Source of the DNA: an uncultured Erysipelotrichaceae bacterium | GTDB lineage: Bacteria > Bacillota_I > Bacilli_A > RF39 > UBA660 | Reading direction: 5' to 3' | DNA: 64,000 nt | Assembly (NCBI GenBank): GCA_902775285.1 | Contig: CACYLI010000001.1 | Coordinates: forward strand, 219,697-283,696 | Made by a program: the position numbers and the translations under genes | Notes under the pieces: generated by a model | What the model was told of the DNA's origin: nothing | What the model saw: only the letters and a program-made list of their open reading frames with translations | The model's database searches: none | Part shown: one piece after another, positions 20,593 through 63,016 of the stretch | Numbering within the stretch: the stretch's first letter is position 1 | How the letters are laid out: each line of letters starts with the position of its first letter

Positions 20593-22770
20593 TTATTTCG
20601 ATTTATTAAATTCATTATAAAATTCTCTAGTATCATTATTATATTGTTCTATTACAAGATTTAATACTCTCTTCAAATAATCTTCAACACTATCATTACC
20701 AATATCAATATAATATAGATATTCTACTGACTTAAATGAAGAATCAAAATCTTTTAATAATTCTTTTTCAAATAAGTATAGATACATTTTTGCATAATCA
20801 CTTAGATTTTTATCTTGGCAATACTTTTCAATTACATTCATTTTAGTATTAAAATAATTCATATCAATCTGTAAATCATTATCATTAATAAATCTTCTTA
20901 TTTTAAATAATTCCATATTTATTTTATCTAATTCATTAATATTAGCATTATTAAATAACTCATTTTCATATTTTAATGCTTCATCAAAACTTTCAAATCT
21001 TTTAAACTTAAAATTTTTATCTTTGTAGTCCAAATACTTATTCATTAAGTCTCTTTCATCTTCTTTTACTTCAGAAATTGATTTACTAGATTTTACTTCT
21101 ACCTCTTCACTTTCTTTAGCAGACTTAACAAAATCAGATTTAACTTCTTGTTTTCTAGGACTAGAATTACTAGTTTGTAAATTATTAACAATATTTTGTT
21201 CTTGTAATAGTGAAGTAGAATACATTCCTCCTCCATCTGTTGCAAAAACATAATTTATATCGTTGTCATCATAATATTTAATAGGTAAATTCTCTAAATC
21301 ATCAACATGACCCAAAGCAACATTAGAACTAATATTAAATTCTATTACTGCTCCAAAATCGTGAATTAAATGTATTAACTCTTCATTTTCATTTATATTT
21401 ACTCCATGACCTATTCTAATTCTAGGAGGAGGTATTACTCCCCAAGATTCTCCAAACAAATCACTACAACTTTCATTAATTTTATTAGCTGTTTCTCTTA
21501 TAGCTTTTAAAGTATTTAAAATATTATCAGTACAATCCTTAAACTCACTAGCATGTATTCTTAATACACTATTTGGATGTATATGTAATACTGGTAAAAT
21601 CCATTCTAATTTTTCTTTAAATAAAGAATACTCTTCTCCTTCTAATGGATGTTCACTCCCCATAATATCTATACCAATTACACTACCACTTTCAAGTAAT
21701 GGTTCTAAGCTTTTAGCAGCATTACTAAATGCTTTAACATTTTTTAATCTATCTATACTATACAAAAATTTAAAATTATCATCATCCTTATGTTTATCAC
21801 TCATATATTTAATTCTAGTATCATTAGAATAACTAATTTCTGAATAACTAATATTTTCACGCTTTAATTTTTTTAAACACTCTTCAAAATAATCATTATA
21901 AACTATGTATCCACTAAAAGTTTGTTCACTATCTTTAAGTTTAACTATTTGATTATTAATTTCAACTTTTTCACTCTTTAATTTATTCTTTTCTTTTTTA
22001 GAATTACATTTTAATATTTTAACTTCAATATTAGTAAGTTCTATATTCAATAAATCTAAATTCTTTGCTATTCTTTCTTTTTCACGAATCCATTCTTTAT
22101 CATTATCTAAATTACTCTTATATTCTTCAATAGCAAGTTTCATTAATTGATTTCTATTATTTACACAATTTTCTAAATCATCAAAATTACCAACTTTAAA
22201 ATCAAGTGATAAACAAGACTCAAGATTCTTTTCCCATCCATTTAATACAATTTCTTCATATGAATACATGTATTCAGAATTAAAATCTAAAAATCCATTT
22301 TCATTCATTGGATATAAAACATTATACTTATTAATAAATTCAATAAATTCATGAGAATTTAATATTTCAATTAAATGAGTATGCAATTCTGTATTTAATA
22401 CTTGAGTAGAGTCCCATCTTTTTTTATTTAAAGCTTTTAAATTTCTCATAATCTTTTCTTTAGATTCTTTAAATAAACTAATTATATTTTCACTTCTATT
22501 TACAAAATGATTATAATATGCTCTTAATATTCTAATTTCCGTACTACTAATTGGTAAAACTCTTGTAATTTCATTATTCTTTATTGTAAGTATTAATTTC
22601 ATACCAAGTGTTACATAAACACCATTATCTCTATTAGTAACAGTAATAAATTTATTTAAAAATGACATATTTTTATCAAATTCAAAAGAAATATTATCTT
22701 TTTCAATAATACATTTATACTTTACACCTTGATCATTTAATAATAATTCTTTCTCCATATCTATCATCAA
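20593..22770 (-). CDS. extended adenosine/AMP-deaminase-fold metallohydrolase (725 aa)
   Basis: ADA signature set found in order: ELHTHL (HxH), VIGIDIMGSE, RIHASE (HAGE-like), RIGHG, EFNISSN, FATDGGG. Flanked by a ~120-aa N-terminal domain and a ~200-aa helical C-terminal domain. Confidence 0.65.
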   Translation of the reverse strand: MMIDMEKELLLNDQGVKYKCIIEKDNISFEFDKNMSFLNKFITVTNRDNGVYVTLGMKLILTIKNNEITRVLPISSTEIRILRAYYNHFVNRSENIISLFKESKEKIMRNLKALNKKRWDSTQVLNTELHTHLIEILNSHEFIEFINKYNVLYPMNENGFLDFNSEYMYSYEEIVLNGWEKNLESCLSLDFKVGNFDDLENCVNNRNQLMKLAIEEYKSNLDNDKEWIREKERIAKNLDLLNIELTNIEVKILKCNSKKEKNKLKSEKVEINNQIVKLKDSEQTFSGYIVYNDYFEECLKKLKRENISYSEISYSNDTRIKYMSDKHKDDDNFKFLYSIDRLKNVKAFSNAAKSLEPLLESGSVIGIDIMGSEHPLEGEEYSLFKEKLEWILPVLHIHPNSVLRIHASEFKDCTDNILNTLKAIRETANKINESCSDLFGESWGVIPPPRIRIGHGVNINENEELIHLIHDFGAVIEFNISSNVALGHVDDLENLPIKYYDDNDINYVFATDGGGMYSTSLLQEQNIVNNLQTSNSSPRKQEVKSDFVKSAKESEEVEVKSSKSISEVKEDERDLMNKYLDYKDKNFKFKRFESFDEALKYENELFNNANINELDKINMELFKIRRFINDNDLQIDMNYFNTKMNVIEKYCQDKNLSDYAKMYLYLFEKELLKDFDSSFKSVEYLYYIDIGNDSVEDYLKRVLNLVIEQYNNDTREFYNEFNKSK

Positions 22771-22837
22771 ATATAATTATAACAAATTTATCTAATAATT
22801 AAAACAAAATTGTTGTATAATTAAAGAGGTGATTAAT

Positions 22838-24184
22838 ATGTTTCAAAATAAAAAAATTTTTATACTAGGAATGGCAAGAAGTGGATATGAAGCTGCTAAG
22901 GTACTTGCTAAAAGAAATAATGAAATTGTTTTAAATGATAATAATGAAAATCAAGATAAAAATCATATAAAAGAATTAGAGAGTCTTGGAGTTAAAGTAA
23001 TACTCGGATCACATCCAGATGATATATTAGATGAATCATTTGACTATTTAATTAAAAATCCAGGAGTAAAATTTGATCATAAATATTTAAAATATGCAGA
23101 AGAACATAACATTAAAGTAATTAATGAAATAGAAATGGCTTATCACTTACTTCCTAAAGGAGTAAAAATAATAGCTATAACTGGTACTAATGGAAAAACA
23201 ACTACCACTACTCTTACATATGAAATTGTATCTCATGCATTCAAAAATAAAACTCATTTAGCAGGAAATATTGGTTTTCCTCTTTGTGAAATACTTGATA
23301 ATATAAAAGAAAATGATTACTTAGTTATGGAAATAGGCGTACCACAAATACATGATTTTTATGATTTTAATCCATATATTGGAGTACTTACTAATATATT
23401 CGAAGCTCATTTAGATATGTTTAAAACTAGAGAATACTATAATGAAAATAAAGTAAGACTTTTTCAAAACCATACAAATAAAAATATAGCAATAATTAAT
23501 TATGATAACGAAGATGCATATAGAATAACAAAAAACATAAAAAGCACAAAAAAATACTTTTCAAGTAATAATATAATTGATGGTAGCTACTTAAAAGATG
23601 ATATTATTTACTATTATAATGAACCAATTATCAATACAAAAGATATAAAATTAAAAGGTAAACATAATTATGAAAATATAATGTGTGCAATTATGATAGC
23701 TAAAGAACTTAATATTAGTAATGATATAATAATAGATGTACTAAAAAACTTTGGCGGTGTAGAACATAGAATAGAATACACAAGAACAATTAATGGAATA
23801 GAATTCTATAACGATTCAAAAGCAACAAATGTTACATCAACTCAAATAGCTCTTTCATCATTTAATAAACCAACAATTTTAATTCTTGGTGGTTTAGACA
23901 GAGGTCATTCATTTGAAGGACTTACAGAATATATGAAAAATGTTAAACTTGTATGTTCCTTAGGACAAACAAATAAAAGAATTAAAGAATATTGTGACAA
24001 AATAAACAAAAAATGTATAGTTGGAGATACTTTAGAAGAAGCAATAAATAATGCATATAATAATTCAGAATCAGGAGATGTTATATTATTAAGCCCAGCT
24101 TGTGCATCATGGGATCAATATAAATGTTTTGAAGATAGAGGAACTGAATTTAAAAATATAGTAAAAGAATTAAAGGAGAAATAG
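22838..24184 (+). CDS. murD: UDP-N-acetylmuramoylalanine--D-glutamate ligase
   Basis: ITGTNGKTTTTTLT P-loop and Mur ligase layout. ATG at 22838 follows AAAGAGG (track starts at a GTG, 22829). Confidence 0.9.
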   Translation: MFQNKKIFILGMARSGYEAAKVLAKRNNEIVLNDNNENQDKNHIKELESLGVKVILGSHPDDILDESFDYLIKNPGVKFDHKYLKYAEEHNIKVINEIEMAYHLLPKGVKIIAITGTNGKTTTTTLTYEIVSHAFKNKTHLAGNIGFPLCEILDNIKENDYLVMEIGVPQIHDFYDFNPYIGVLTNIFEAHLDMFKTREYYNENKVRLFQNHTNKNIAIINYDNEDAYRITKNIKSTKKYFSSNNIIDGSYLKDDIIYYYNEPIINTKDIKLKGKHNYENIMCAIMIAKELNISNDIIIDVLKNFGGVEHRIEYTRTINGIEFYNDSKATNVTSTQIALSSFNKPTILILGGLDRGHSFEGLTEYMKNVKLVCSLGQTNKRIKEYCDKINKKCIVGDTLEEAINNAYNNSESGDVILLSPACASWDQYKCFEDRGTEFKNIVKELKEK

Positions 24185-50283: not shown

Positions 50284-51531
50284 ATGAAAAACGATCCAAT
50301 ATTAGAATATATAGAAAATTCTTTTAAAGATGGTAGTTTAAAAGAACAAATTAAAAATTTAAAAAGATTAATTATTTATTTATCAGATGAAGAAAATAAT
50401 AAAGAAATTGATTTAACAGAAGCAGATTTTTTACTTAATCATAGTGATAAACTTAATACTATGATTAAAACTATAATTGAAGCCGGAAACTATTCTAAAT
50501 ATTTAAATGATTTAAATATTTACTCAATTGCTGCTGTTTATGCAGAAAAAAATAAAATTAATTTAAAAATTGATGATGAAACAGATTCAAGAACTAATCA
50601 TTCTGGTTCATTAACAAAAAAAGATGAAGATATTTTAAATTATTATTTTGACGACATTCATAGAATAAAGTTATTAACACCAGATGAAGAAATAGAACTT
50701 GCTAAAAGAGTTGAACTTGGTGATATGGAGGCTAAGAATAAACTTATAACAGCAAACTTAAGATTAGTTTTAACTATAGCAAGAAAATATGAAGATAAAA
50801 ACCTTCCATTTACAGATTTAATTCAAGAAGGAAACATAGGTTTAATAAGAGCTGTTGAAAAATTTGATTATAGAAAAGGATTTAAATTTTCAACATATGC
50901 ATGCTACTGGATTAGACAAGGTATGTCAAGAGCATTAGCAGAAAAATCAAGAATTATTAAATTACCTACTCACTTATTTGAGGATTTAAATAAAATATAT
51001 ACATTTATGGGAAAATATAGACAAGAACATGGATTTGATCCATCAGTAAGTGAAATAGCATCTGAAATTAATATAAGTAAACAAAGAGTTGAAAGAGCTT
51101 TAGCAATTCAAGAACCTAGATCTTTAAATGAATATTGTAAAAATGAAGATACTGATACAGAAATTGGAGATTTAGTTCCAGATGAAACCGATTATGAAGA
51201 AGATATATTAAATAAATTATATAATGAAAATGTTAAAGCATTCTTAGAAAATAATGAAATATTAACAATTAATGAAACAACTGTATTAAAATATAGATAT
51301 GGTTTTGTTAATGGTAAACTTTATACTTTAGAAGAAATAGGAAATATTCTTGGATTAACTAGAGAAAGAGTTAGACAAATAGAAGATAAAGCTTTAAGAA
51401 AATTAAGCAGATCTAAACAAATGCAAGAATTATATCAAGGTAGAATTAATAAAGATATAATCTATGGACAAAAAAATCATTATAGAACATTAAAACAATT
51501 ATATAGACATCAAGATACAATAAAAATGTAG
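50284..51531 (+). CDS. RpoD-like (group 1/2) sigma-70 factor with a non-canonical ~130-aa N-terminal region
   Basis: Region 2 ([32 protein letters not shown]), region 3, and region 4.2 ([27 protein letters not shown]). Confidence 0.85.
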
Positions 51532-51831
51532 AAATACATTTTTATTTTTTTGAATTAATAATTAAAAATTGAAATGTATATAATATAAGACAACTAATGA
51601 AAGAGAAAAATAATATGACAGAAGAATTTTTAAAAAATTACAAGAAGCAAATCAAAAAGCTATAAAAGTTTATAAAAAAGAAAATAATAAGTTTTTAGAA
51701 GAATGCAAAAAAATTAAAAGGAAAGTTTTATCATAAACAAAAAGAACTTATTGTATTATAATAGTCCTTTTGTTTTAAAGAATAAATTATAATTAATATT
51801 TATTCTTTTTGTTTGATTAACTAAATAAAAA

Positions 51832-51858
51832 TCGAACTATTTCTAGTTCGACTATTTT
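51832..51858 (+). terminator. intrinsic terminator-like hairpin at or near the left boundary of element 1
   Basis: TCGAACTA-TTTC-TAGTTCGA followed by CTATTTTT. Confidence 0.55.
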
Positions 51859-52011
51859 TACAAATGGAGCGATAACTTTACTTATATTCGAAAAATTATA
51901 CTCCCAAAGTTGTTTGATTAAATCAACTAAATAAATTATATCAGTTTTTAAAATTATTACAATACTTTTAGGATAAAATCACTTGTTGCTATTTAAAAAA
52001 ATGTCAAAATA

Positions 52012-52067
52012 TGATATTATTATGGTAGATTTGTATCATTAATTATGATACTTTTTTTCTTGGGAGG
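52012..52067 (+). promoter_or_regulatory. promoter, 5'-terminal hairpin/U7 leader and RBS of NTase operon 1
   Basis: Extended -10 TGATATTAT (52012-52020). TAGATTT (52026-32). GTATCAT-TAATT-ATGATAC (52033-51). T7 (52052-58). GGGAGG (52062-67). Confidence 0.55.
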
Positions 52068-52075
52068 AATTATAT

Positions 52076-52864
52076 ATGTCAGTAAATTCATATTTAGAAA
52101 ATTTAGCGGGGAATTTAATACTATCAAATTCGGAAAAAGATAGTATAAAAACATCAATAGATACATTAGAGTATAGATTAAATTCATATTTTGGTGACGA
52201 TATTGAGGAACAGTTTGAATTTGGATCTTATCCTAGAGTCACTATATTGCCTAGAAAAGTTGATGATGATTCGGATGTAGATTATATGGTTGTATTTGAT
52301 AATTCTAATAATTATAAACCTCAAACTTTTTTAGATAGATTAAGAAAGTTTGCAGAAGCAAAGTATTCTACATCAGAAATTTATCAATCATCACCTACAA
52401 TGGTATTAGAATTAAATCACATTAAATTTGAACTTGTTCCTGCATATAAGTCTTACTCTGGAACATATTATATTTCCAATGGCAATGGTGGTTGGATGGC
52501 AACATATCCAAATGACTTCAATTCACAACTTACAAAAGCAAATAACAATAATTCATATAAAATAAAGCCAATTGTAAGACTTATTAAAGAATGGAATGTA
52601 AAAGTAAATTATCATGATTTAACTTCTTATAAGATAGAAGAAAGAATTGCATATAATATGGATTATTCATATGTTTACTGTACAAGTTATACAGATTATG
52701 TAAAAGAAGCTTTTTATCAATTAAAAAATATTACTTACGATAGTAGCATTAAAAGTAGAATTGATACTGCATTAGAAAGAATAGATAAAGCACTAAAATA
52801 TGAAAATGATAATATGCCTTATTCAGCATTAGGAGAAATTAAAAAGGTTTTCCCAGAGGTATAA
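52076..52864 (+). CDS. minimal SMODS/CD-NTase-type nucleotidyltransferase
   Basis: Pol-beta NTase signature FGSYPRVT...DSDVDYMVVF...IKFELVPAY. 262 aa. Followed directly by a TM effector-like gene. Confidence 0.7.
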   Translation: MSVNSYLENLAGNLILSNSEKDSIKTSIDTLEYRLNSYFGDDIEEQFEFGSYPRVTILPRKVDDDSDVDYMVVFDNSNNYKPQTFLDRLRKFAEAKYSTSEIYQSSPTMVLELNHIKFELVPAYKSYSGTYYISNGNGGWMATYPNDFNSQLTKANNNNSYKIKPIVRLIKEWNVKVNYHDLTSYKIEERIAYNMDYSYVYCTSYTDYVKEAFYQLKNITYDSSIKSRIDTALERIDKALKYENDNMPYSALGEIKKVFPEV

Positions 52865-52865
52865 A

Positions 52866-53642
52866 ATGAGTGATGATAGAATAGATGAAATTCAAGAACT
52901 TTATGATAGGTGCAATAAAATTGCAAAGTATGCTAATTGGTTATTTTTAATTAATATTGCTGTTTCGTTTATATTATTATTTAATTTTAAATATAGGGAT
53001 ATATTTGTTATTATAAGTCTATTACTAACTATTGTATATGTTATATTGGTAAACATAAATGAAATGTATTTTAGTAATCTTGCAGAAAACGAAAGAAGAA
53101 AGTCTCTTTTAAAAGAATCGTTTGATGTTAACACTACCTTGAGAGATACAAATAAGTATTATAATAATGAAGCACAACCTTCTATTGAAAAACTAGGACT
53201 AAATTGTTATGAAAGTGCCTTTTTTACAAAAAAAGTAGTTGATAAAATGCTTCCGATAAATATTATTAAAGTTAGTATACTTATTATAATATATATAATT
53301 TTAATGATAAAATTAGATAATATGGATTTATTATTAGTAATTACACAAACATTATTTTCTGCCGAAATTATATTTTCTTTTATAAAATTATGTTATTATA
53401 AATTTCAATTAGATAAAGTTTGTAAAGAATTTCAAAACATATTTTTGATAATTGGTTTAAAAAATAAAGATGCGAATGTATTAATATTAGATGCTACTAT
53501 GGATTATGAATGCTTAAAAAGTTATTGTAAGATTTTAACATCTAGCAAGATTTTCCTTAAAAACAATGATCAATGGTCAAAAGAATGGCAAAGACTGTTA
53601 AATAAAATTAAAAAGAAAAAGGAGAAGGATAGCAATGAATAA
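52866..53642 (+). CDS. four-TM (2+2) membrane protein, S-4TM-like putative effector
   Basis: Starts 1 nt after the NTase stop. Helices WLFLINIAVSFILLFNF, IFVIISLLLTIVYVILVNI, VSILIIIYIILMIKL, LLLVITQTLFSAEIIFSFIKL. Confidence 0.6.
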   Translation: MSDDRIDEIQELYDRCNKIAKYANWLFLINIAVSFILLFNFKYRDIFVIISLLLTIVYVILVNINEMYFSNLAENERRKSLLKESFDVNTTLRDTNKYYNNEAQPSIEKLGLNCYESAFFTKKVVDKMLPINIIKVSILIIIYIILMIKLDNMDLLLVITQTLFSAEIIFSFIKLCYYKFQLDKVCKEFQNIFLIIGLKNKDANVLILDATMDYECLKSYCKILTSSKIFLKNNDQWSKEWQRLLNKIKKKKEKDSNE

Positions 53643-54993
53643 TTATGATGTTTGTATTATAGGTGCTGGTCCATGTGGCTTAACTCTAGCATTAGAATTA
53701 AGTACCAAATATAAAGTATGTATTATTGAAGCGGGACGTGAGTATCAAAAAAGAATATGTCCACTAGATACGAAAGGAATATGTAAAGAAAATTGTAATC
53801 CTTGTAATATTATAACAGGTTTCGGTGGGTGTCAATTTATTGATGGTACAAAGGCATGCTTTTATCCCGCAGGATCTGGCTTATTTAATTTTAATTCTAA
53901 AGAAGAAGTTATATCAAATTATAATTATATAGAAAAATTGTTAGTTAAATATGGTAAACCATTGAGAGAACAATCAAGCGAAGAAGAAATAAACAAAATA
54001 ATAAGTGATTTTAATAAATATAATATTGATGTTAAATATTATAATGCTCAAAAAGTGGATAAAGATGTTATGCAGTCAATTGGAATTAGAATGCGTGAAG
54101 AGTTAATTAAAAATGGTGTTGAATTTTTTTATAATGAATGTGTCTACAACATAGAAAAAAATGATGATTTCACCATTTATTCAACAAGCAAAGTAATCAA
54201 AGCAAAAAAGGTTGCCTTAGCTACAGGCAGATATGGTGGACTATTCTTAAACAAGTTATCAGAAAAATTGAAGATAGAATATGAAAAAAATAATTTTGTA
54301 GGTGAAATAGGTGTAAGAATAGAAATGCCATATAATGTTTTTAATCATGTTGATAATGTCTTTAACGATATAAAATTAAAAAGAAAAATTGATGATTTTA
54401 ATGAGATGAGGTCTTTTTGTCAAAACTATAAAGGTATAGTTAGAAAATGTGTGTTTGATACCGAAAACGCTAAAATGTCTTCATTAGATGGTTGCATATT
54501 AGGTCCAGAAAGAAATAATACACAAAGTATAAATATTGCTATTCATCACAGAAAAAAAGATATAACTGAAATTGAGAAATTTAAGGATATGATTTTACAA
54601 GCAAATAAGGACGGAAAGCCAATCGCTCAAAATATGGTATCATTTCTTAATAATACAGACAATTGTGAGTTTAACGAAAAATATTGTACTATGAAAGATT
54701 ATGTTATAGATAATGCTAATAAGTATTTACCAGAAGAAACATTAAATTATATAAAAGATATGATAGTTGATATTGATAAGGTTTTACCAGGATTTGCTGA
54801 TAGAGACAATATAGTTTATGCTCCATCATTTGAATTAGGCGGAGATAAATACAAACTTTCAAAAGGGTTTGAAACAAATATTGAAGGATTATATATTGGC
54901 GGAGATGCTTGTGGATTCTTTAGAGGATTAATGCAAGCGATGATATCAGGTAAAATAATTAGTGAAGATATAATAAAAAAAATGGAGGTATAG
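53635..54993 (+). CDS. FAD-dependent oxidoreductase (COG2509-like)
   Basis: YDVCIIGAGPCGLTLALEL dinucleotide fold, Cys cluster CPLDTKGICKENCNPC, and C-terminal GLYIGGDACGFFRGLMQAMISG. 8-nt overlap with the upstream gene. Confidence 0.8.
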   Translation: MNNYDVCIIGAGPCGLTLALELSTKYKVCIIEAGREYQKRICPLDTKGICKENCNPCNIITGFGGCQFIDGTKACFYPAGSGLFNFNSKEEVISNYNYIEKLLVKYGKPLREQSSEEEINKIISDFNKYNIDVKYYNAQKVDKDVMQSIGIRMREELIKNGVEFFYNECVYNIEKNDDFTIYSTSKVIKAKKVALATGRYGGLFLNKLSEKLKIEYEKNNFVGEIGVRIEMPYNVFNHVDNVFNDIKLKRKIDDFNEMRSFCQNYKGIVRKCVFDTENAKMSSLDGCILGPERNNTQSINIAIHHRKKDITEIEKFKDMILQANKDGKPIAQNMVSFLNNTDNCEFNEKYCTMKDYVIDNANKYLPEETLNYIKDMIVDIDKVLPGFADRDNIVYAPSFELGGDKYKLSKGFETNIEGLYIGGDACGFFRGLMQAMISGKIISEDIIKKMEV

Positions 54994-54997
54994 AAAG

Positions 54998-55654
54998 ATG
55001 AATGAAAAAGATTATATTGAGATTAACAAAGCATCATACGATATAGTTGCTGAAGAATATAAAACAAAATATAAAAACAATGATGGTGCTAATAAGTTTT
55101 ATGAGATATTACAGGAATTTGTTTTAAATAAGAAAAATAGTAGCATTTCAAAAATGTTAGAAATTGGACCAGGAGTTGGTACACTTCTAAAAATATTTGA
55201 AGAAAAAGGATTTAGAACAACAGCAGTAGAATTATCAAAAAACATGGCATCTTTAGCTTGTGAAAATTCGAGTAATTCAGTCATTATCAATGGCAATATT
55301 CTTGAAACTGATTTTATGCCTAAACAATTTGATTTTATTTTAGCAATGGCTGTTATTCATAATTTTCCAGAAGAAGATTTAATAAAATTACTAGATAAAA
55401 TTAAAATATGGTTAAAAGATGACGGATATTTTATTTTAGATACTACTAATAATAAAGTTACCGAAACTGGATTTTTTGAAAAAGAAGATTACAATAATAA
55501 TGTAGTACGTTATAGAAGAAAATGGAAAAAGGAAGATTTAGAAACTTTTATGGAAAAACAAGGATTTTATATTCAAGATAGTGTTGTTTATAAAGATTCT
55601 ACCTCTAGTAAAGAATGGCTTATATATAGTTTTAAAGTTGAAAAAAGTGCGTAA
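54998..55654 (+). CDS. class I SAM-dependent methyltransferase
   Basis: MLEIGPGVGTL (motif I), FDFILAMAVIHNF. Starts 4 nt after the FAD gene stop. Confidence 0.8.
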   Translation: MNEKDYIEINKASYDIVAEEYKTKYKNNDGANKFYEILQEFVLNKKNSSISKMLEIGPGVGTLLKIFEEKGFRTTAVELSKNMASLACENSSNSVIINGNILETDFMPKQFDFILAMAVIHNFPEEDLIKLLDKIKIWLKDDGYFILDTTNNKVTETGFFEKEDYNNNVVRYRRKWKKEDLETFMEKQGFYIQDSVVYKDSTSSKEWLIYSFKVEKSA

Positions 55655-55674
55655 TATTTTACACACTTTTCATT

Positions 55675-56985
55675 TTATTCTAAAGTCTTAGAATTGTCTT
55701 TTTCTTTTTGAATATCTTTATCAAAATTATTAAGATTATTTTGTATGCCTTCGGCTCTTTTAGTTATTTCTTTACAATACTTATCATACTTATAGAGTAC
55801 TTTAATTTTAGGTTGTATATCATTTATTTCAGCAAGTATTTCATTTTGTTTATCTTCAATTTTTGCTCTGTGGTATCTTTTCCAGAGATTTTCTCTTTTT
55901 CCTTTTAATTCACTTAATTCATTAGAGTTATTTTTAGCAAAATTTTCCAAATCTTCTTTTGTAACGATATTTTTCTCATGCATAAATCTAACTTGTTGTG
56001 AAATTTGTTCTAATTTATAAACTTCTTTTCTAATAGAGTATGGAAGATATTGTTTTGGATGTTTCTTTGGAAAGACTCCTAGTAGATAACAATAGTATAA
56101 ATATAATCCATATATTCCTTTATGGGTTTTATTAGTTTTAGAATATTCTTCAAAGATAGATTTTTGTGGCATAGGTCTAAATACTATTTGTCTTGATAAA
56201 TATAATCGTTGGTTTAGTCTTTCTTTTGAATATTCTTCACCAAATACATTTTCTATTCTAACTTTATCTTCACCATCTCTATAAATAGTTATTACACCAT
56301 TACGAGAATAAACTTTATAACCTAGTGACCTCATTCTCTCAAATAATTGTTTTAAAGTAACTGAATAACTAATAACACTATCTAAATCTTCTTTAAGAGT
56401 TTTGTAATATTCATCATTTGAAATGCTTTTAGTATAAGTCCTTTTATAAAACTTATCTTCATCTAAAACAGATAGTCCATATTCAGAACATAGTGAATCA
56501 GAAATATGTCTTATCTTTGATATATTGGTTAGGTTGTTATTATATTTCTTACCAGTTTTAAATGATACAGAATTGATAATGAAATGGTTGTGTATGTGGT
56601 TAGTATTTTGATGTGTAGCAACAACCACTTCATAATCTTTAAACATTTCTTCAACAAACTTAACTCCAATCTCATGAGCAATGTCAGGAGTAACTTCTCC
56701 TTTTTTAAATGACTGATAACCATGATAAGCGAGAACTCCATCTTTTTTTCTAAATCTTTCTTTGGTGAACTCCATATCATCACAAGGATTATCTTCATCA
56801 CAATTCAAGCAACTGACATAACAAACTTTTTCTTCTTTAAAATTATAATCTTTAATAGGTTCTTCTAAATAACTATATGATTCTCTATTACCATAATCTT
56901 TATTAAGAGTTTTCTCAGGATTGATGATATAATTTATAGACTGCTTTAAATTATTCTTAATACTCCAAATTGATGTTGTTGCCAT
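55675..56985 (-). CDS. relaxase/mobilisation nuclease (MobA/VirD2-type)
   Basis: MATTSIWSIKNNLKQSINYIINPEKT N-terminus and the His-cluster ATHQNTNHIHNHFIINSV. Confidence 0.85.
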   Translation of the reverse strand: MATTSIWSIKNNLKQSINYIINPEKTLNKDYGNRESYSYLEEPIKDYNFKEEKVCYVSCLNCDEDNPCDDMEFTKERFRKKDGVLAYHGYQSFKKGEVTPDIAHEIGVKFVEEMFKDYEVVVATHQNTNHIHNHFIINSVSFKTGKKYNNNLTNISKIRHISDSLCSEYGLSVLDEDKFYKRTYTKSISNDEYYKTLKEDLDSVISYSVTLKQLFERMRSLGYKVYSRNGVITIYRDGEDKVRIENVFGEEYSKERLNQRLYLSRQIVFRPMPQKSIFEEYSKTNKTHKGIYGLYLYYCYLLGVFPKKHPKQYLPYSIRKEVYKLEQISQQVRFMHEKNIVTKEDLENFAKNNSNELSELKGKRENLWKRYHRAKIEDKQNEILAEINDIQPKIKVLYKYDKYCKEITKRAEGIQNNLNNFDKDIQKEKDNSKTLE

Positions 56986-57008
56986 TATAGGTTTATTCTT
57001 CCTTTTTG

Positions 57009-57040
57009 GGTGGTGGGAGTAATACCACCTTGCTTGCTTA
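57009..57040 (+). promoter_or_regulatory. candidate oriT core of element 1
   Basis: GGTGG...CCACC hairpin with GGGAGTAA in the loop, followed by TGCTTGCTTA. Same motif and spacing recur at 63394-63430. Confidence 0.4.
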
Positions 57041-57048
57041 TGACAACA

Positions 57049-57402
57049 TTAGACATAAATTAACTCCTTTAGAATAATTTCTTCAGCAGTATTTTTATAA
57101 TTATTCATCAATTTTACCCATTCAAGTTGATTATTTTCTTTACTTTTTTCGGATAGTTTTTCATCATTTTTAATATAATTATCCATTAAAGTTTTTAATC
57201 TTTCTTCACATTCTTTACTGGCTGAAAGAAGATGATTTGTTAGTTCATTCTTCATTAAAAGTGCTTGATATAATCCTTTTTTGTGTTCCTTAATATAATA
57301 TAATCGCAAGTAACCATACTTATTTACTTCTCCATAATTTTGATTTTCTATTACTAAATTAGGTAATAAATAGTCTCCAACTTTTCTATAATCGATATTC
57401 AT
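57049..57402 (-). CDS. tnpV: TnpV family transposon protein
   Basis: MNIDYRKVGDYLLPNL...NKYGYLRL...QLEWVKLMNNYKNTAEEIILKELIY matches the TnpV pattern of Tn4451-type elements. Confidence 0.8.
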   Translation of the reverse strand: MNIDYRKVGDYLLPNLVIENQNYGEVNKYGYLRLYYIKEHKKGLYQALLMKNELTNHLLSASKECEERLKTLMDNYIKNDEKLSEKSKENNQLEWVKLMNNYKNTAEEIILKELIYV

Positions 57403-57420
57403 AATTTAATCAAATCCTTT

Positions 57421-59262
<1,842 letters not shown>

Positions 59263-59288
59263 TTAGTAATGAAAGGCACCAAAGTAAA

Positions 59289-59314
59289 AAGGTGTCACAT
59301 AACAAGGACACCTT
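59289..59314 (-). terminator. hairpin terminator upstream of the recombinase gene
   Basis: AAGGTGTC-N10-GACACCTT followed on the minus strand by TTTTT. Confidence 0.5.
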
Positions 59315-59382
59315 TGAATAATTGATTATTTTATACGACAAAAACAACCAATATTGTGGGAGTATATAAACTCACCAATTCA

Positions 59383-59655
59383 TTAATGCCTTGCTATGTA
59401 CTCTGATAATTCAGACAATGGGATTTTCTTCTTTAAATTCCCTATATAAAAATGTTTCTGTTCATTGAAGAATAGGTATAACTTATCTCCAATAATTACT
59501 TTATGTGGTTCTACATACGCTAAATTGGTATGTTCCACAATCCTTAAGTATCCTTCAATTATTTGATAGGACTTCTTATTAAATTTGCAAGACCAATTAA
59601 TTTTGGCTTTGAGTTCATCACTCATATTGATTTTCTTTTTTACGATATTAATCAT
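59383..59655 (-). CDS. hypothetical 90-aa protein at the right end of element 1
   Basis: ORF in the track with no recognisable motif. Codirectional with the recombinase. Confidence 0.4.
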   Translation of the reverse strand: MINIVKKKINMSDELKAKINWSCKFNKKSYQIIEGYLRIVEHTNLAYVEPHKVIIGDKLYLFFNEQKHFYIGNLKKKIPLSELSEYIARH

Positions 59656-59836
59656 ACCACATCACACCCTTTCTTTGCAATAGCAACAAAAAAATCAACT
59701 TGCGTTGATTTAATCATTAACATCGCTTGGTGCGACGATTTTATCTTTTGGAGCGATTAAGCAACAGCTTACGAACTAATAAGTTCTCTTTCTAAATAAA
59801 TTATATATTAATTCTTTTTAAATTTCAATGGGAGTA

Positions 59837-59913
59837 TGGAAAAAAATACCTAGATATAGTATAATTAAACTAGATTTCGTATCGTTAAATTACGATACTT
59901 TTTTTGTGGGAGG
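59837..59913 (+). promoter_or_regulatory. promoter, 5'-terminal hairpin/U7 leader and RBS of NTase operon 2
   Basis: TGGAAA-N17-TATAAT (59837-59865). TAGATTT (59871-77). GTATCGT-TAAATT-ACGATAC (59879-98). T7 (59899-905). GGGAGG (59908-913). Confidence 0.55.
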
Positions 59914-59918
59914 TTTAA

Positions 59919-60812
59919 ATGAGATATACTGAAAGTCAATTAGAAGGTTTTACTAAGCCAATTAGTGATACTGAAAATCAAAGATGTGAAAATATGATAA
60001 AAATGGTAAAGGAGGCTATCCAAGACTATTATATTGAAACTAGAGATAATAAAATGAATTTAAGTGATTATGAAATATTTTTACAAGGTTCTTATGCAAA
60101 CAATACTAATGTTAAGCAAAATAGCGATGTTGATATTTGTGTTATGTATAAAAATGTATTTCATTATAGTATGCCTGAAGGATATTCTTTAAATGGCTCA
60201 TACACAGATTCTTCATTAGATTATTTTGAATTAAGAAATACCATAAAAAGAGCATTAATTAAGAAATTTGGCTCTGATAGAATAATAGATAAAAATAAAG
60301 CTATAAGGATATTATCAAACTCTTACACGACAGATGCAGATGTTGTAGTTGCATTTCAATATAGAAAATATATCAATTCCACAAATTTTCAAGAAGGTAT
60401 TTATTATAAAGCATTAGATAAGTCCATAGTTATTAATTATCCTAAAATACATATTAAAAATGGAAATGAAAAAAATGTTGCTAGTAATTATATGTATAAA
60501 AAAATGGTAAGAATTTTCAAAAAAATAATGTATGATATGCAAGATGACAAAATTTATGGAAGTAAAGATGTAAAAGGATTTGTTTTAGAATGTATGATTT
60601 ATAATTTTCCTAATGATGAGATGTTTAAACATATAGAAACTAAATATACAGATAATTTACAAAAAATGATGAATACATTTATTAATGAATCTATGAATTT
60701 GTGGAAAGAAGTAAATGAAATAAAATGGTTATTTGGCATTGAAGAAGGAAAAAAAGAAAGTGATTATAAGGATTATATAAAAGCTATGAAGGAGTATGTA
60801 AATGGAAACTAA
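59919..60812 (+). CDS. cdnX: CD-NTase (cGAS/DncV-like nucleotidyltransferase)
   Basis: FLQGSYANNTNVKQNSDVDICVMY and TTDADVVVAF catalytic acidic residues. 297 aa. Overlaps the downstream effector gene. Confidence 0.8.
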   Translation: MRYTESQLEGFTKPISDTENQRCENMIKMVKEAIQDYYIETRDNKMNLSDYEIFLQGSYANNTNVKQNSDVDICVMYKNVFHYSMPEGYSLNGSYTDSSLDYFELRNTIKRALIKKFGSDRIIDKNKAIRILSNSYTTDADVVVAFQYRKYINSTNFQEGIYYKALDKSIVINYPKIHIKNGNEKNVASNYMYKKMVRIFKKIMYDMQDDKIYGSKDVKGFVLECMIYNFPNDEMFKHIETKYTDNLQKMMNTFINESMNLWKEVNEIKWLFGIEEGKKESDYKDYIKAMKEYVNGN

Positions 60813-61407
60813 AAAAATTATAATAATATTGCCAATTATAAATTATATTATATTTTTTTCTTTAATATCTAAAATTATTAATCTGTCGTGGTATGATTCA
60901 CTTGGATATGCTATAACTGCAACATTACTTGAAATATTTATATTCAAAAAATGGTTATGGAAAATACCAATATTACAAAAAATCACTAAAATTAACAATA
61001 TACAGGGAATATGGACAGGAAAAATTGTATCTAATTACGATGATAAAGAGCACATAATAGAGGAAGTTATTATTAAGCAAAGTTTTAATAAATATAAAGT
61101 AGTTCTAAGCACAAAAGAATCAAGAAGTTATAGTGGTATTAACGAAATAAGTATTAATGAGTTTGATAGAATGGAATTACAGTATATGTATAAAAATGAA
61201 GCTCCAGTAAATTTAAGAAAAAAAAATCCTATGCATTTTGGTGTTGCAAATTTAGAGTATAAAGATAATAAATTAACTGGGACTTATTGGACTGATCGAG
61301 AAATTAATGGTGGAAAAAATACAAGAGGAACAATGGAATTACAAAGAACTAACAAAAATGGACATTTTGATTTAATAAGTATATTAGATGTTTTTGATGT
61401 TTTTTAG
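60802..61407 (+). CDS. cap15: Cap15-like (S-2TM-beta) CBASS effector
   Basis: Two N-terminal TM helices, then a beta-rich ~130-aa domain (GIWTGKIVSNY...YKVVLSTKESRSYS...LQYMYKNE...HFGVANLEY...LTGTYWTDRE...TRGTMELQR). 11-nt overlap with the CD-NTase gene. Confidence 0.7.
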   Translation: METKKIIIILPIINYIIFFSLISKIINLSWYDSLGYAITATLLEIFIFKKWLWKIPILQKITKINNIQGIWTGKIVSNYDDKEHIIEEVIIKQSFNKYKVVLSTKESRSYSGINEISINEFDRMELQYMYKNEAPVNLRKKNPMHFGVANLEYKDNKLTGTYWTDREINGGKNTRGTMELQRTNKNGHFDLISILDVFDVF

Positions 61408-61459: not shown

Positions 61460-63016
61460 ATGAAAAGCGATGAATTAAAGAAATTAATTAGTCAAATAAG
61501 AAAGTATAATTTGGAAAAAGCATTTGATACACCAAAAGATTTTGATAAGTGGCTAAAGGGCTTAAGTGCAAAACAAATTAAAAATTTTAATAGTTTAACA
61601 GTAGAACCAAGTGAAATACAATTTCCTGTATGTTTTTTAATTGATGAAGATTTATTAAATTGTGATGATTATAATAATAGAATTATTGCAATGTCAAAAA
61701 TTAGAAATGCTGATGGATGGTATCACCTATTTGATAGATTATGCTCACCTAATTTTTTGAATAGTAAAAATTATTATGAAGACATGGAAATGATAAGTAA
61801 GGCGCCTAGTGCACAATATCCTTTATGGATAATTAATGAAGATGCTTTTATAAATAGCCCATATCATAAAGAAGATTTAAAACTTATAATAGAAGCAAAA
61901 GATACGCCAAAAGAAAATGGTAATGAATTAGACTGGCTTGTAGCAGAAGCTTTAACTGTAGTTGCTGGTAATGCTAATTCTATTAATAGTCCATATCATC
62001 AAAAGGATATGCAGTTAATAGCACATGCTGGTAGTGAATGCTTGCAAATGAGCCATTCTTATCCAGAAAGTAGTTTAAATAATCTTGCAACAAATAGTGT
62101 TTCATTAAAAGATAAATATCATCTAGAAAATATGCAAATACTAGCACAAAATCCAGCAGCAGGAGAATATCTATATGAGTTGATGACTAATCCTGAAATT
62201 ATTAAGGGAAGATATTATAGAAACGAAGTAAATGCTTTGGCTACTTCAAAAAGTCCGATTACCGCATTAGCAATGTATTTTTATATTTTAAATCCAGATG
62301 AATTTGAGTCAAGAAGAAAATCAAGTGATTTACTATGGAATTTAGGATGTTGGGACTATAATGATGTCTTAGAATGTAGACGAAGAAATAGTATTAAAGG
62401 TAGCACCAATCCAAATTATATAAAGTATTTAGAATCATTAAATCAAATTGATGATAAATGTGTATTATTTATTGAATCACTTTTATCAAATAAAACTTTC
62501 GCTAGTAGTCAATATTGTGACTATGATCTAAATTTATTACTTTCTACACAAGATAAAAATATTTTTATAGATTTATATAGGGTTATGTCTAATGAAATAT
62601 CGTTAAATGGAAGTCATCATATTAAAGACTTAGATATTATAAGTAAAGTAAGTAATAAAGAATTAAGGCAGTTGTTAATAGAGAAAGCAATAGATGAGGA
62701 TAGTATAGATAGTTGCTATCACGATTATGATATGGAATATATATCTAAATTAGATTTGGATAACATTGATAAAGAAACTTTTAAATTAATATATCATTAT
62801 CTTTTTATTCCTAATAAAATTAATCACCCTAATCATATTGAAAGACTAGAAAAACTATCAAGAGGTGAAAGTATACAAAGTGAAGATACTATAATAAGTC
62901 ACCTAGATTACTTAGAAAATAATCCAGATAATGTTATAGTTCCAGATAAAGTAGTTCCAAATGAAGAAAAACCAAAAGTTTTATCTAGAATTAGACAAAT
63001 ATTTAGGAAAAGATAA
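61460..63016 (+). CDS. uncharacterised helical repeat protein (~10 copies of a ~40-aa NSPYH-type repeat)
   Basis: Repeats INSPYHKEDLKLIIEA, INSPYHQKDMQLIAHA, LKDKYHLENMQILAQN, LNGSHHIKDLDIISKV, IDSCYHDYDMEYISKL, INHPNHIERLEKLSRG and others. Confidence 0.6.
   Translation: MKSDELKKLISQIRKYNLEKAFDTPKDFDKWLKGLSAKQIKNFNSLTVEPSEIQFPVCFLIDEDLLNCDDYNNRIIAMSKIRNADGWYHLFDRLCSPNFLNSKNYYEDMEMISKAPSAQYPLWIINEDAFINSPYHKEDLKLIIEAKDTPKENGNELDWLVAEALTVVAGNANSINSPYHQKDMQLIAHAGSECLQMSHSYPESSLNNLATNSVSLKDKYHLENMQILAQNPAAGEYLYELMTNPEIIKGRYYRNEVNALATSKSPITALAMYFYILNPDEFESRRKSSDLLWNLGCWDYNDVLECRRRNSIKGSTNPNYIKYLESLNQIDDKCVLFIESLLSNKTFASSQYCDYDLNLLLSTQDKNIFIDLYRVMSNEISLNGSHHIKDLDIISKVSNKELRQLLIEKAIDEDSIDSCYHDYDMEYISKLDLDNIDKETFKLIYHYLFIPNKINHPNHIERLEKLSRGESIQSEDTIISHLDYLENNPDNVIVPDKVVPNEEKPKVLSRIRQIFRKR

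What the first reader, a model, noticed from the sequence alone, without database searches (positions are those of the whole stretch)
52076..53642. Minimal SMODS-type nucleotidyltransferase plus 2+2-TM effector pair
A 262-aa NTase (GSYPRV...DSDVDYMVVF...FELVPAY, with Glu at the third acidic position) is followed after 1 nt by a 258-aa protein. That protein has two pairs of TM helices separated by a ~65-aa loop, plus a Lys-rich tail. This matches the predicted SMODS/S-4TM signalling-effector logic (Burroughs et al. 2015; the TM-effector class of type I CBASS). The NTase is much smaller than characterised CD-NTases and may make an unknown signal.
Basis: partly seen in the sequence, partly recalled or inferred. 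Interest (0 to 1): 0.65.

Follow-up and report, generated by a model that had tools for sequence, protein, structure and literature searches.

The report
Two-gene CBASS on a transposon
This is an ordinary, already catalogued two-gene bacterial anti-phage alarm system (type I CBASS), made of a small signalling-nucleotide synthase and a four-helix membrane effector and carried as cargo on a small mobilisable transposon; its signal molecule and the effector's mechanism are still unknown.

Summary
A 262-aa nucleotidyltransferase (52076-52864) sits 1 nt upstream of a 258-aa protein (52866-53642). That protein has 2+2 TM helices, a ~63-aa loop and a Lys-rich tail.

The NTase is a true CD-NTase:
- Pfam SMODS E=7e-44.
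- PADLOC CBASS cyclase model, full length, E=2.5e-94.
- AlphaFold model pLDDT 94.8; its top 50 PDB matches are all CD-NTases, best P. aeruginosa CdnD.
- G50, S51, D67 and E119 are invariant in 77 homologues, and D69 is kept in 76.

The partner matches the PADLOC '4TM' CBASS effector model at full length (E=1e-55). It follows or adjoins a SMODS/CD-NTase-type gene in all nine other contexts examined, including a BREX operon, a type I R-M locus and three plasmids.

- The effector is not Pfam S-4TM (no HMM hit; hhalign probability 1-9%).
- The NTase is only about 10% shorter than the smallest solved CD-NTases.

The downstream flavoprotein and methyltransferase are a swappable passenger cassette, not part of the system.

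Verdict: a new member of a known kind. Interest is low to moderate. The nucleotide product and the 4TM mechanism are still open: the family has 719 clusters, no Pfam model and no solved structure.

The parts
51986..52075 (+). Putative promoter (TTGCTA-18-TATGAT, or extended -10 TGATATTAT) and 5' leader. The leader has a 7-bp hairpin followed by U7 and the RBS GGGAGG.
   Evidence: Consensus scan, sequence and fold (centroid -6.6 kcal/mol, z = -1.0). The same leader layout precedes the second CBASS operon at 59866-59918. Function is inferred only.
52076..52864 (+). CD-NTase / SMODS cyclase (cdn), 262 aa. Catalytic residues are G50, S51, D67, D69 and E119.
   Evidence: Pfam PF18144 E=7.3e-44. PADLOC PDLC00769, positions 1-260/261, E=2.5e-94. 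AF2 pLDDT 94.8. Foldseek top 50 all CD-NTases, best PaCdnD E=1.4e-13. Residue conservation.
52866..53642 (+). 4TM CBASS effector, 258 aa. Predicted topology is N-in/C-in. TM1 is about 24-42, TM2 46-66, the cytoplasmic loop 67-129, TM3 130-149, TM4 155-177 and the cytoplasmic C-terminal helices 178-258.
   Evidence: PADLOC PDLC00719 '4TM', positions 2-254/256, E=9.9e-56. Hydropathy and charge tally. AF2 all-helical model, pLDDT 84.5. Residues kept in at least 90% of 122 diverse members: R77, Y98, Y99, N100, N101, E116, Q161, F164, Y214, E215, K218.
51861..53650 (.). Left homology block of the transposon: left end, leader and the CBASS pair. It ends 8 nt after the effector stop codon.
   Evidence: 95% DNA identity to L011 7789-9575 and L013.
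53651..55688 (+). NOT part of the system. This is a swapped passenger cassette: flavoprotein 53635-54993 and SAM methyltransferase 54998-55654.
   Evidence: There is no DNA homology to L011 or L013 here. The 95%-identical relative has a 366-aa protein plus an HD_3 protein instead. Flavoprotein homologues occur without SMODS in four contexts.
55675..59755 (-). Vehicle backbone: MobA/VirD2-type relaxase 55675-56985, TnpV 57049-57402, large serine recombinase 57421-59250, then the right end.
   Evidence: Pfam PF03432, PF14198, PF00239 and PF07508. 94% DNA identity to L011 11400-15465.

Best explanation
This is a minimal (type I) CBASS anti-phage system, carried as cargo on a ~7.9-kb Tn4451-like mobilisable transposon with a serine recombinase, TnpV and a relaxase.

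Shown:
- The first gene encodes a compact CD-NTase of the SMODS family. Its Pol-beta active site is intact (G50-S51, D67, D69, E119).
- The second gene is translationally coupled to it. It encodes a four-TM protein of a catalogued CBASS effector family.
- The pair is inherited as a unit across very different genomic contexts.

Inferred mechanism:
- On phage infection the cyclase is activated directly by a phage-derived cue. There are no Cap2/Cap3 or HORMA/TRIP13 regulators.
- It converts NTPs into a cyclic di- or trinucleotide.
- The signal binds the cytoplasmic face of the effector. This face is a helical bundle made of extensions of TM2, TM3 and TM4 plus two C-terminal helices. It carries the family's near-invariant residues: AE..RRK, T..YYNN, E116, YE..K.
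- Binding drives oligomerisation or opening in the membrane. This depolarises or permeabilises the cell and aborts the infection before phage release.

The identity of the nucleotide and the effector's mode of membrane damage are not known for this cluster.
For: - Cyclase family: Pfam SMODS 150 bits against a cut-off of 26.5. PADLOC cyclase and 4TM effector models both match at full length.
- Cyclase fold: AF2 model pLDDT 94.8, pTM 0.90. The top 50 Foldseek PDB hits are all bacterial CD-NTases, with TMq up to 0.80. A profile search of the PDB finds CD-NTases only, led by 9sa4 and PaCdnD at about 9e-11.
- Active site: the catalytic residues are fixed in 76-77 of 77 homologues. E119 aligns with the third catalytic Asp of PaCdnD and 9sa4.
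- Pairing: an effector homologue lies directly beside a SMODS/CD-NTase-type gene in all nine other independent contexts checked. These are a BREX operon, a type I R-M locus, three chromosomal or contig settings (L008-L010, L035, L037), the same transposon, pMRC01, a B. cereus plasmid and an S. hominis plasmid.
- Topology: positive-inside charges place the conserved loop (10 K+R) and the C-terminus (17 K+R) in the cytoplasm.
- Defence and mobile context: BREX, R-M and the transposon.
- Patchy distribution: absent from 17 same-family genomes.
- Literature: type I CBASS operons mostly pair clade D/E/F cyclases with 2TM or 4TM effectors, and EcCdnD12-4TM restricts phages from five families. Other TM effectors kill by inner-membrane disruption.
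Against: - No experiment exists for this cluster, so the product, the trigger and membrane damage are all inferred.
- NCBIfam's CBASS_cyclase_b equivalog scores 101.9 bits, below its cut-off of 200.
- The effector has no Pfam family, no S_4TM match and no structural neighbour in the PDB (best E=0.26). Its mode of action rests on analogy with Cap15 and Cap14.
- Whether the tested E. coli 4TM effector belongs to the same sequence family was not checked.
Confidence: 0.85

Rival explanations
1. The pair is the front half of a four-gene system. In this reading the overlapping flavoprotein (53635-54993) and the methyltransferase (54998-55654) modify the signal, the cyclase or a phage target.
For: The flavoprotein start overlaps the effector stop by 8 nt, and all four genes share a strand with no terminator-like site on that strand. 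Flavoprotein homologues are found next to or fused with nucleotide-hydrolase domains such as Ham1 and HD_3. The methyltransferase has a weak PADLOC mad2-like hit.
Against: DNA homology to the 95%-identical element stops 8 nt after the effector stop codon and resumes at the relaxase. The relative carries unrelated genes there, a 366-aa protein plus HD_3. The pair occurs without these genes in the eight other contexts with different neighbours. The flavoprotein occurs without SMODS in four contexts; at 84% identity it has the same methyltransferase on a conjugative element.
Confidence: 0.05
2. The system mainly serves the transposon rather than the host. It would act as an addiction or exclusion module, or as a weapon against competing mobile elements, not as anti-phage immunity.
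For: It is cargo of a mobilisable transposon, and a second element with a different CBASS sits next to it. Homologues are on conjugative plasmids.
Against: Homologous pairs also sit inside a BREX operon and beside type I R-M genes on chromosomal contigs. That is typical of anti-phage islands. Type I CBASS-4TM has shown anti-phage activity. The two roles are not mutually exclusive.
Confidence: 0.07
3. The NTase is a MNT/AbiEii-type toxin-antitoxin nucleotidyltransferase that acts on a protein or tRNA. It would not be a second-messenger synthase, and the TM protein would be an unrelated toxin.
For: There is a weak Pfam NTP_transf_2 hit (E=0.033). Many homologues carry a secondary PF01909 annotation.
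Against: The SMODS hit is 40 orders of magnitude stronger. The whole 262-aa model, including the C-terminal helical lobe, superposes on CD-NTases. The top 50 structural hits include no MNT/AbiEii-type or other non-CD-NTase enzyme.
Confidence: 0.03

Closest known systems
Type I CBASS with a clade-D-like CD-NTase and a 4TM effector (PADLOC cbass 'Cyclase' PDLC00769 plus 'Effector 4TM' PDLC00719; experimental example EcCdnD12-4TM, bioRxiv 10.1101/2023.05.21.541620)
   Same: Two-gene operon with the cyclase first and the four-TM effector second, and no ancillary regulators. Both PADLOC models match at full length. The best sequence and structure matches in the PDB that carry a clade name are clade D enzymes.
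   Different: The host is a low-GC (~25%), small-genome bacterium and the vehicle is a serine-recombinase transposon. The cyclase is 262 aa with Glu as the third acidic residue. Whether the E. coli 4TM effector is the same sequence family was not tested.
SMODS + S-4TM pairs of Burroughs et al. 2015 (Pfam PF18144 + PF18159); example found here in L015
   Same: The logic and architecture are the same. The SMODS NTase is 31% identical over 129 aa to the L015 NTase. Its partner is a ~250-300-aa protein with 2+2 TM helices, a long cytoplasmic loop and a basic C-terminal tail.
   Different: No detectable sequence homology between the effectors: BLASTP E=0.94, no PF18159 hit, hhalign probability 0.9-8.7%.
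P. aeruginosa CdnD (PDB 6p8u, 6p82, 6p8j), the type III CBASS cAAA synthase
   Same: Closest solved structure (E=1.4e-13, TMq 0.75-0.78). Profile E=9e-11 over residues 2-181. Same GS / DxD / third-acid geometry.
   Different: 18% identity. PaCdnD is 300 aa with an extra ~11-residue loop and a longer C-terminal lobe. It uses Asp at the third position. It is regulated by HORMA/TRIP13 and signals to the NucC nuclease, not to a membrane protein.
Cap15 (2TM + beta-barrel) type I CBASS, present 7 kb away at 59919-61407
   Same: A two-gene cyclase plus membrane-effector system on a sister transposon with the same leader layout.
   Different: The cyclases are unrelated at BLAST level (E=5.1). The effector there has a beta-barrel sensor (PF18153); the one studied here is all-helical.

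Membership tests
SMODS (Pfam PF18144) | HMM score above the gathering threshold over the whole domain | tested here: met
   150.3 bits against a cut-off of 26.5. Profile positions 1-164 of 164, E=7.3e-44.
CD-NTase (cGAS/DncV-like nucleotidyltransferase) | Bilobed Pol-beta NTase core plus C-terminal helical lobe that superposes on solved CD-NTases | tested here: met
   AF2 pLDDT 94.8. The top 50 Foldseek PDB hits are all bacterial CD-NTases (named CdnB/C/D/E/G or DncV where a clade is given). TMq is 0.60-0.80 and the best E is 1.4e-13.
CD-NTase (cGAS/DncV-like nucleotidyltransferase) | Catalytic GS motif, [DE]x[DE] and a third acidic residue | tested here: met
   G50, S51, D67 and E119 are fixed in 77/77 homologues and D69 in 76/77. 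E119 aligns with the third Asp of PaCdnD and 9sa4. The third residue is Glu rather than Asp.
CD-NTase (cGAS/DncV-like nucleotidyltransferase) | Synthesises a cyclic oligonucleotide | not testable with these tools
   Needs an enzyme assay.
CD-NTase clade D | Groups with clade D references in a phylogeny | tested here: inconclusive
   The clade-named PDB sequence and profile hits are clade D enzymes, alongside 9sa4/9sa5, whose clade is unknown. No tree with the reference set was built.
Type I CBASS | Cyclase adjacent to an effector gene, with the pairing conserved | tested here: met
   1-nt gap. The pairing is kept in every context examined. Both PADLOC cbass models hit.
Type I CBASS | No Cap2/Cap3 (E1/E2/JAB), HORMA/TRIP13 or QueC/TGT/OGG ancillary genes | tested here: met
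   The neighbours are a sigma factor, a flavoprotein, a methyltransferase, a relaxase, TnpV and a recombinase.
Type I CBASS | Confers abortive-infection phage defence | not testable with these tools
   Only the context supports this: BREX, R-M and mobile elements.
S-4TM (Pfam PF18159) | HMM match above the 26.9-bit cut-off, or profile-level homology to members | tested here: not met
   No hit at E<=10 for the protein or the genome. 0 of 122 family members hit. hhalign probability against true members is 0.9-8.7%.
PADLOC CBASS '4TM' effector (PDLC00719) | Full-length HMM match and four TM helices | tested here: met
   E=9.9e-56, positions 2-254 of 256. Four hydrophobic segments.
NCBIfam CBASS_cyclase_b (NF041117, equivalog) | Score of at least 200 bits | tested here: not met
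   101.9 bits. It is related to this equivalog but is not a member of it.

The most novel reading that the evidence does not exclude
This compact cyclase cluster has Glu fixed at the third catalytic position. It may make a nucleotide signal not yet described for CBASS. Its partner may be a new kind of nucleotide-gated membrane effector. That effector family is all-helical, has 719 clusters, no Pfam model, no PDB neighbour and no detectable homology to S-4TM. Its sensor would be a cytoplasmic helical bundle carrying the AE..RRK / YYNN / YE..K residues, with no SAVED, beta-barrel or STING domain.
Probability: 0.2. Interest if true: 0.55.

Novelty: new member of a known kind. Interest (0 to 1): 0.25.

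Why it matters
This locus adds one more example of a catalogued defence system, so it changes little by itself. Three points have modest value.

1. The '4TM' class of CBASS effectors is not one family. This family, widespread in Firmicutes, is distinct from Pfam S-4TM. It has no solved structure or known ligand, and a clear set of conserved cytoplasmic residues is now available for mutagenesis.
2. The locus shows CBASS modules being shuffled as cassettes on small serine-recombinase transposons, next to interchangeable passenger genes.
3. A homologous pair, annotated only as NTase and 'hypothetical', sits on the classic lactococcal phage-resistance plasmid pMRC01. It offers a tractable lab host for testing.

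Tried and rejected
1. Pfam S-4TM membership. I scanned the protein at E<=10, the whole genome and 122 family members. I also ran hhalign against five true S_4TM proteins gathered from 399 genomes. All were negative or weak.
2. PDB fold search of the effector model. Nothing was significant; the best E was 0.26.
3. The four-gene-system idea. It was rejected by the homology breakpoints, by the lack of similarity between the alternative third genes and by the independent occurrence of the flavoprotein.
4. Phage-collection search for the effector. No match.
5. Literature searches for a mechanism of 4TM effectors or for 'Cap13'. They gave only the class-level statements cited. Millman 2020 and the published Richmond-Buccola paper are not held.
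6. Mapping pMRC01's historical phage-resistance phenotype to the homologous pair. This was not possible from the held papers.
7. The leader hairpin as an attenuator. The fold is weak (z = -1.0 and -2.2). I left it as an observation.

Full report
**Observation**

Table-11 ORF calling gives a 262-aa ORF at 52076..52864 (+) and a 258-aa ORF at 52866..53642 (+), separated by one nucleotide. The second start codon is preceded by GAGGT, which lies inside the end of the first gene. This fits translational coupling.

The second protein has four hydrophobic segments in two pairs, at about 24-42/46-66 and 130-149/155-177. A 63-aa loop separates the pairs. An 81-aa C-terminal region ends in KIKKKKEKDSNE.

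**The cyclase**

- Pfam SMODS (PF18144) matches over its whole length (150 bits, E=7.3e-44).
- The PADLOC CBASS cyclase model PDLC00769 matches residues 1-261 at E=2.5e-94.
- A search of 5.8 billion proteins returns 2336 homologues. The 120 best listed are 214-269 aa, nearly all 256-262 aa.
- In an alignment of 77 of them, G50, S51, D67 and E119 are invariant and D69 is kept in 76. The Glu at the third acidic position is therefore a fixed trait of the cluster, not a lesion.
- E119 aligns with the third catalytic Asp of P. aeruginosa CdnD and of the CD-NTase 9sa4.
- The AlphaFold2 model is confident (pLDDT 94.8, pTM 0.90). Its 50 best PDB matches are all bacterial CD-NTases. They are led by P. 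aeruginosa CdnD (E=1.4e-13, TMq 0.75-0.78) and include CdnB, CdnC, CdnE, CdnG and DncV.
- At profile level, the clade-named PDB matches are clade D enzymes. The unclassified CD-NTase 9sa4 scores about equally.

The solved chains that match are 271-302 residues at the short end. PADLOC has cyclase models of 236-261 positions. So the enzyme is compact, with shorter loops and a shorter C-terminal lobe. It is not exceptionally small.

**The effector**

- PADLOC's CBASS '4TM' effector model PDLC00719 matches residues 4-248 at E=9.9e-56. A second 4TM model matches at 1.5e-29.
- Pfam has nothing for it. PF18159 (S_4TM) gives no hit at E<=10 for the protein or anywhere in the genome. None of 122 diverse family members hits it.
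- I gathered five true S_4TM proteins from 399 genomes of the phylum. One of them, L015, sits behind a SMODS gene.
- hhalign between the families gives 0.9-1.1% probability with the shallow alignment. It gives 8.7% with the deep one, although that alignment is co-linear across TM1-TM4.
- The effector therefore shares the S-4TM architecture but fails the membership test. At best it is a very remote relative.
- An exhaustive HMM search of 1.84 billion representatives finds 719 clusters (568 at E<=1e-10). Nearly all are 244-271 aa and match end to end.
- Across 122 of them (mean column identity 32%), N101 and E116 are invariant. D7, A73, R77, Y98, Y99, N100, F120, M128, Q161, F164, Y214, E215, K218, N234 and W241 are kept in at least 90%.
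- The AF2 model (pLDDT 84.5, pTM 0.83) is all-helical. TM2 and TM3 continue as long helices (44-86 and 107-149), and three further helices follow TM4.
- The conserved residues lie on these extensions and on the loop at their tip.
- K+R counts are 10 in the loop and 17 in the C-terminus, against 1 and 0 in the short turns. This places those parts in the cytoplasm, where a nucleotide signal would be met.
- The model has no significant PDB neighbour (best E=0.26).

**The pair is the unit**

Homologues of both genes are adjacent in every independent context I read:

| Context | NTase identity | Effector identity |
|---|---|---|
| Inside a BREX operon, between brxC and pglX | 79% | 63% |
| Upstream of a type I R-M operon | 66% | 53% |
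| Chromosomal context (L008-L010) | 60% | 30% |
| Same kind of transposon | 95% | 95% |
| Behind 265-266-aa SMODS genes (two more divergent effector homologues) | n/a | 32%, 41% |
| L. lactis pMRC01 | 56% | 29% |
| B. cereus plasmid | 44% | 32% |
| S. hominis plasmid; different 333-aa cyclase, reversed order | 29% (local, over 136 aa) | 31% |

The S. hominis case shows that the effector is a module that can change cyclase partner.

**The downstream genes are passengers**

- The flavoprotein gene (53635-54993) overlaps the effector stop codon by 8 nt, and a methyltransferase follows. This invites a four-gene reading.
- DNA comparison with the 95%-identical element shows homology over 51861-53650 and 55689-59755, and none over 53651-55688.
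- In that gap the relative carries an unrelated 366-aa protein plus an HD_3 protein.
- Conversely, flavoprotein homologues occur without any SMODS gene in four contexts. At 84% identity it has the same methyltransferase on a conjugative element. Elsewhere it sits beside radical-SAM or Ham1-like genes.
- The system is therefore two genes.

**The vehicle**

The pair is cargo of a ~7.9-kb element (about 51861-59755). The backbone is a MobA/VirD2 relaxase, TnpV and a large serine recombinase.

A sister element follows. It carries an unrelated cyclase (PDLC00801) and a Cap15-like effector (PF18153).

The effector family is absent from all 17 same-family genomes. In the 399-genome phylum sample, only one genome other than the window's own has a match, and that match is partial. 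This fits recent horizontal acquisition.

**Mechanism**

Shown: the fold, the intact active site, the catalogued families, the conserved pairing and the defence or mobile context.

Inferred from established CBASS biology:
- Type I operons lack regulators and respond directly to phage cues. A clade-D 4TM operon restricts phages of five families in E. coli (bioRxiv 10.1101/2023.05.21.541620).
- TM effectors such as Cap15 disrupt the inner membrane on ligand binding (PMC10419184).
- By analogy, infection activates the cyclase. It makes a cyclic di- or trinucleotide. The signal binds the cytoplasmic helical bundle of the effector, and membrane integrity is lost, aborting the infection.
- The product is unknown. 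The nearest solved enzymes make cyclic trinucleotides, but 18% identity does not allow a prediction.

**Comparison, novelty and scores**

The system belongs to type I CBASS with a 4TM effector, and both components are already modelled in PADLOC (2023). It is a new member of a known kind.

What remains open is the nucleotide product of this Glu-type compact cyclase cluster, and the structure and mechanism of a large effector family that has no Pfam model or solved relative.

- Confidence in the CBASS reading: 0.85.
- Interest: 0.25.
- Most novel reading not excluded: a new signal plus a new class of helical nucleotide sensor. Probability is about 0.2 and interest if true about 0.55.

Earlier scan notes on look-alike loci in two other genomes reached the same two-gene conclusion. 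I treated them as leads and re-derived the result here.

Noticed in passing
window 59919-61407: A second, unrelated type I CBASS sits 6.3 kb downstream on a sister transposon. It has a 297-aa cyclase (PADLOC PDLC00801, E=6e-87) overlapping a 201-aa Cap15-like 2TM/beta-barrel effector (PF18153, E=2.7e-18). The two cyclases show no BLAST similarity (E=5.1).
   Followed up: partly
window 52029-52070 and 59871-59913: Both CBASS operons share a leader layout: TAGATTT, a 7-bp hairpin (GTATCAT/ATGATAC versus GTATCGT/ACGATAC), U7, then GGGAGG. The folds are weak (-6.6 and -10.7 kcal/mol; z = -1.0 and -2.2). It could be an attenuator or an operator belonging to the transposon backbone.
   Followed up: partly
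window 53635-55654: The flavoprotein plus SAM-methyltransferase cassette travels on its own. At 84% identity it sits on a conjugative element (L020). More distant flavoprotein homologues sit beside, or are fused to, Ham1-like or HD_3/YfbR-like nucleotide hydrolases or a radical-SAM enzyme. This hints at a nucleotide-related substrate.
   Followed up: partly
L001-L004, 6001-7565: A homologous NTase+4TM pair (79% and 63% identity) is inserted inside a type 1 BREX operon, between brxC and pglX.
   Followed up: no
L030 (NC_001949.1, L. lactis pMRC01, record 21584-23131): The classic phage-resistance and lacticin plasmid pMRC01 carries a homologous pair (NTase 56%, 4TM 29% identity). The record annotates it only as 'nucleotidyltransferase domain-containing protein' and 'hypothetical protein'. 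Whether it explains the plasmid's abortive-infection phenotype could not be established from the held papers.
   Followed up: partly
L017, L018, L019 (S_4TM matches at about 1090-2330): Weak but above-threshold Pfam S_4TM hits occur in 380-412-aa proteins with long Lys/Thr/Pro-rich tails. No SMODS-like ORF is visible in the ±1.5-kb flanks, and in L017 and L018 the same flanking ORFs recur on both sides. So S_4TM-like domains also occur outside CBASS.
   Followed up: no
window 61460-63016: A 518-aa ORF with no family match (Pfam and NCBIfam negative) fills the rest of the second element's cargo space.
   Followed up: no
window 51830-51853: A bidirectional terminator-like hairpin lies just outside the transposon's left end (homology to relatives begins at 51861-51865), after the sigma-70 gene at 50284-51531.
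   Followed up: no
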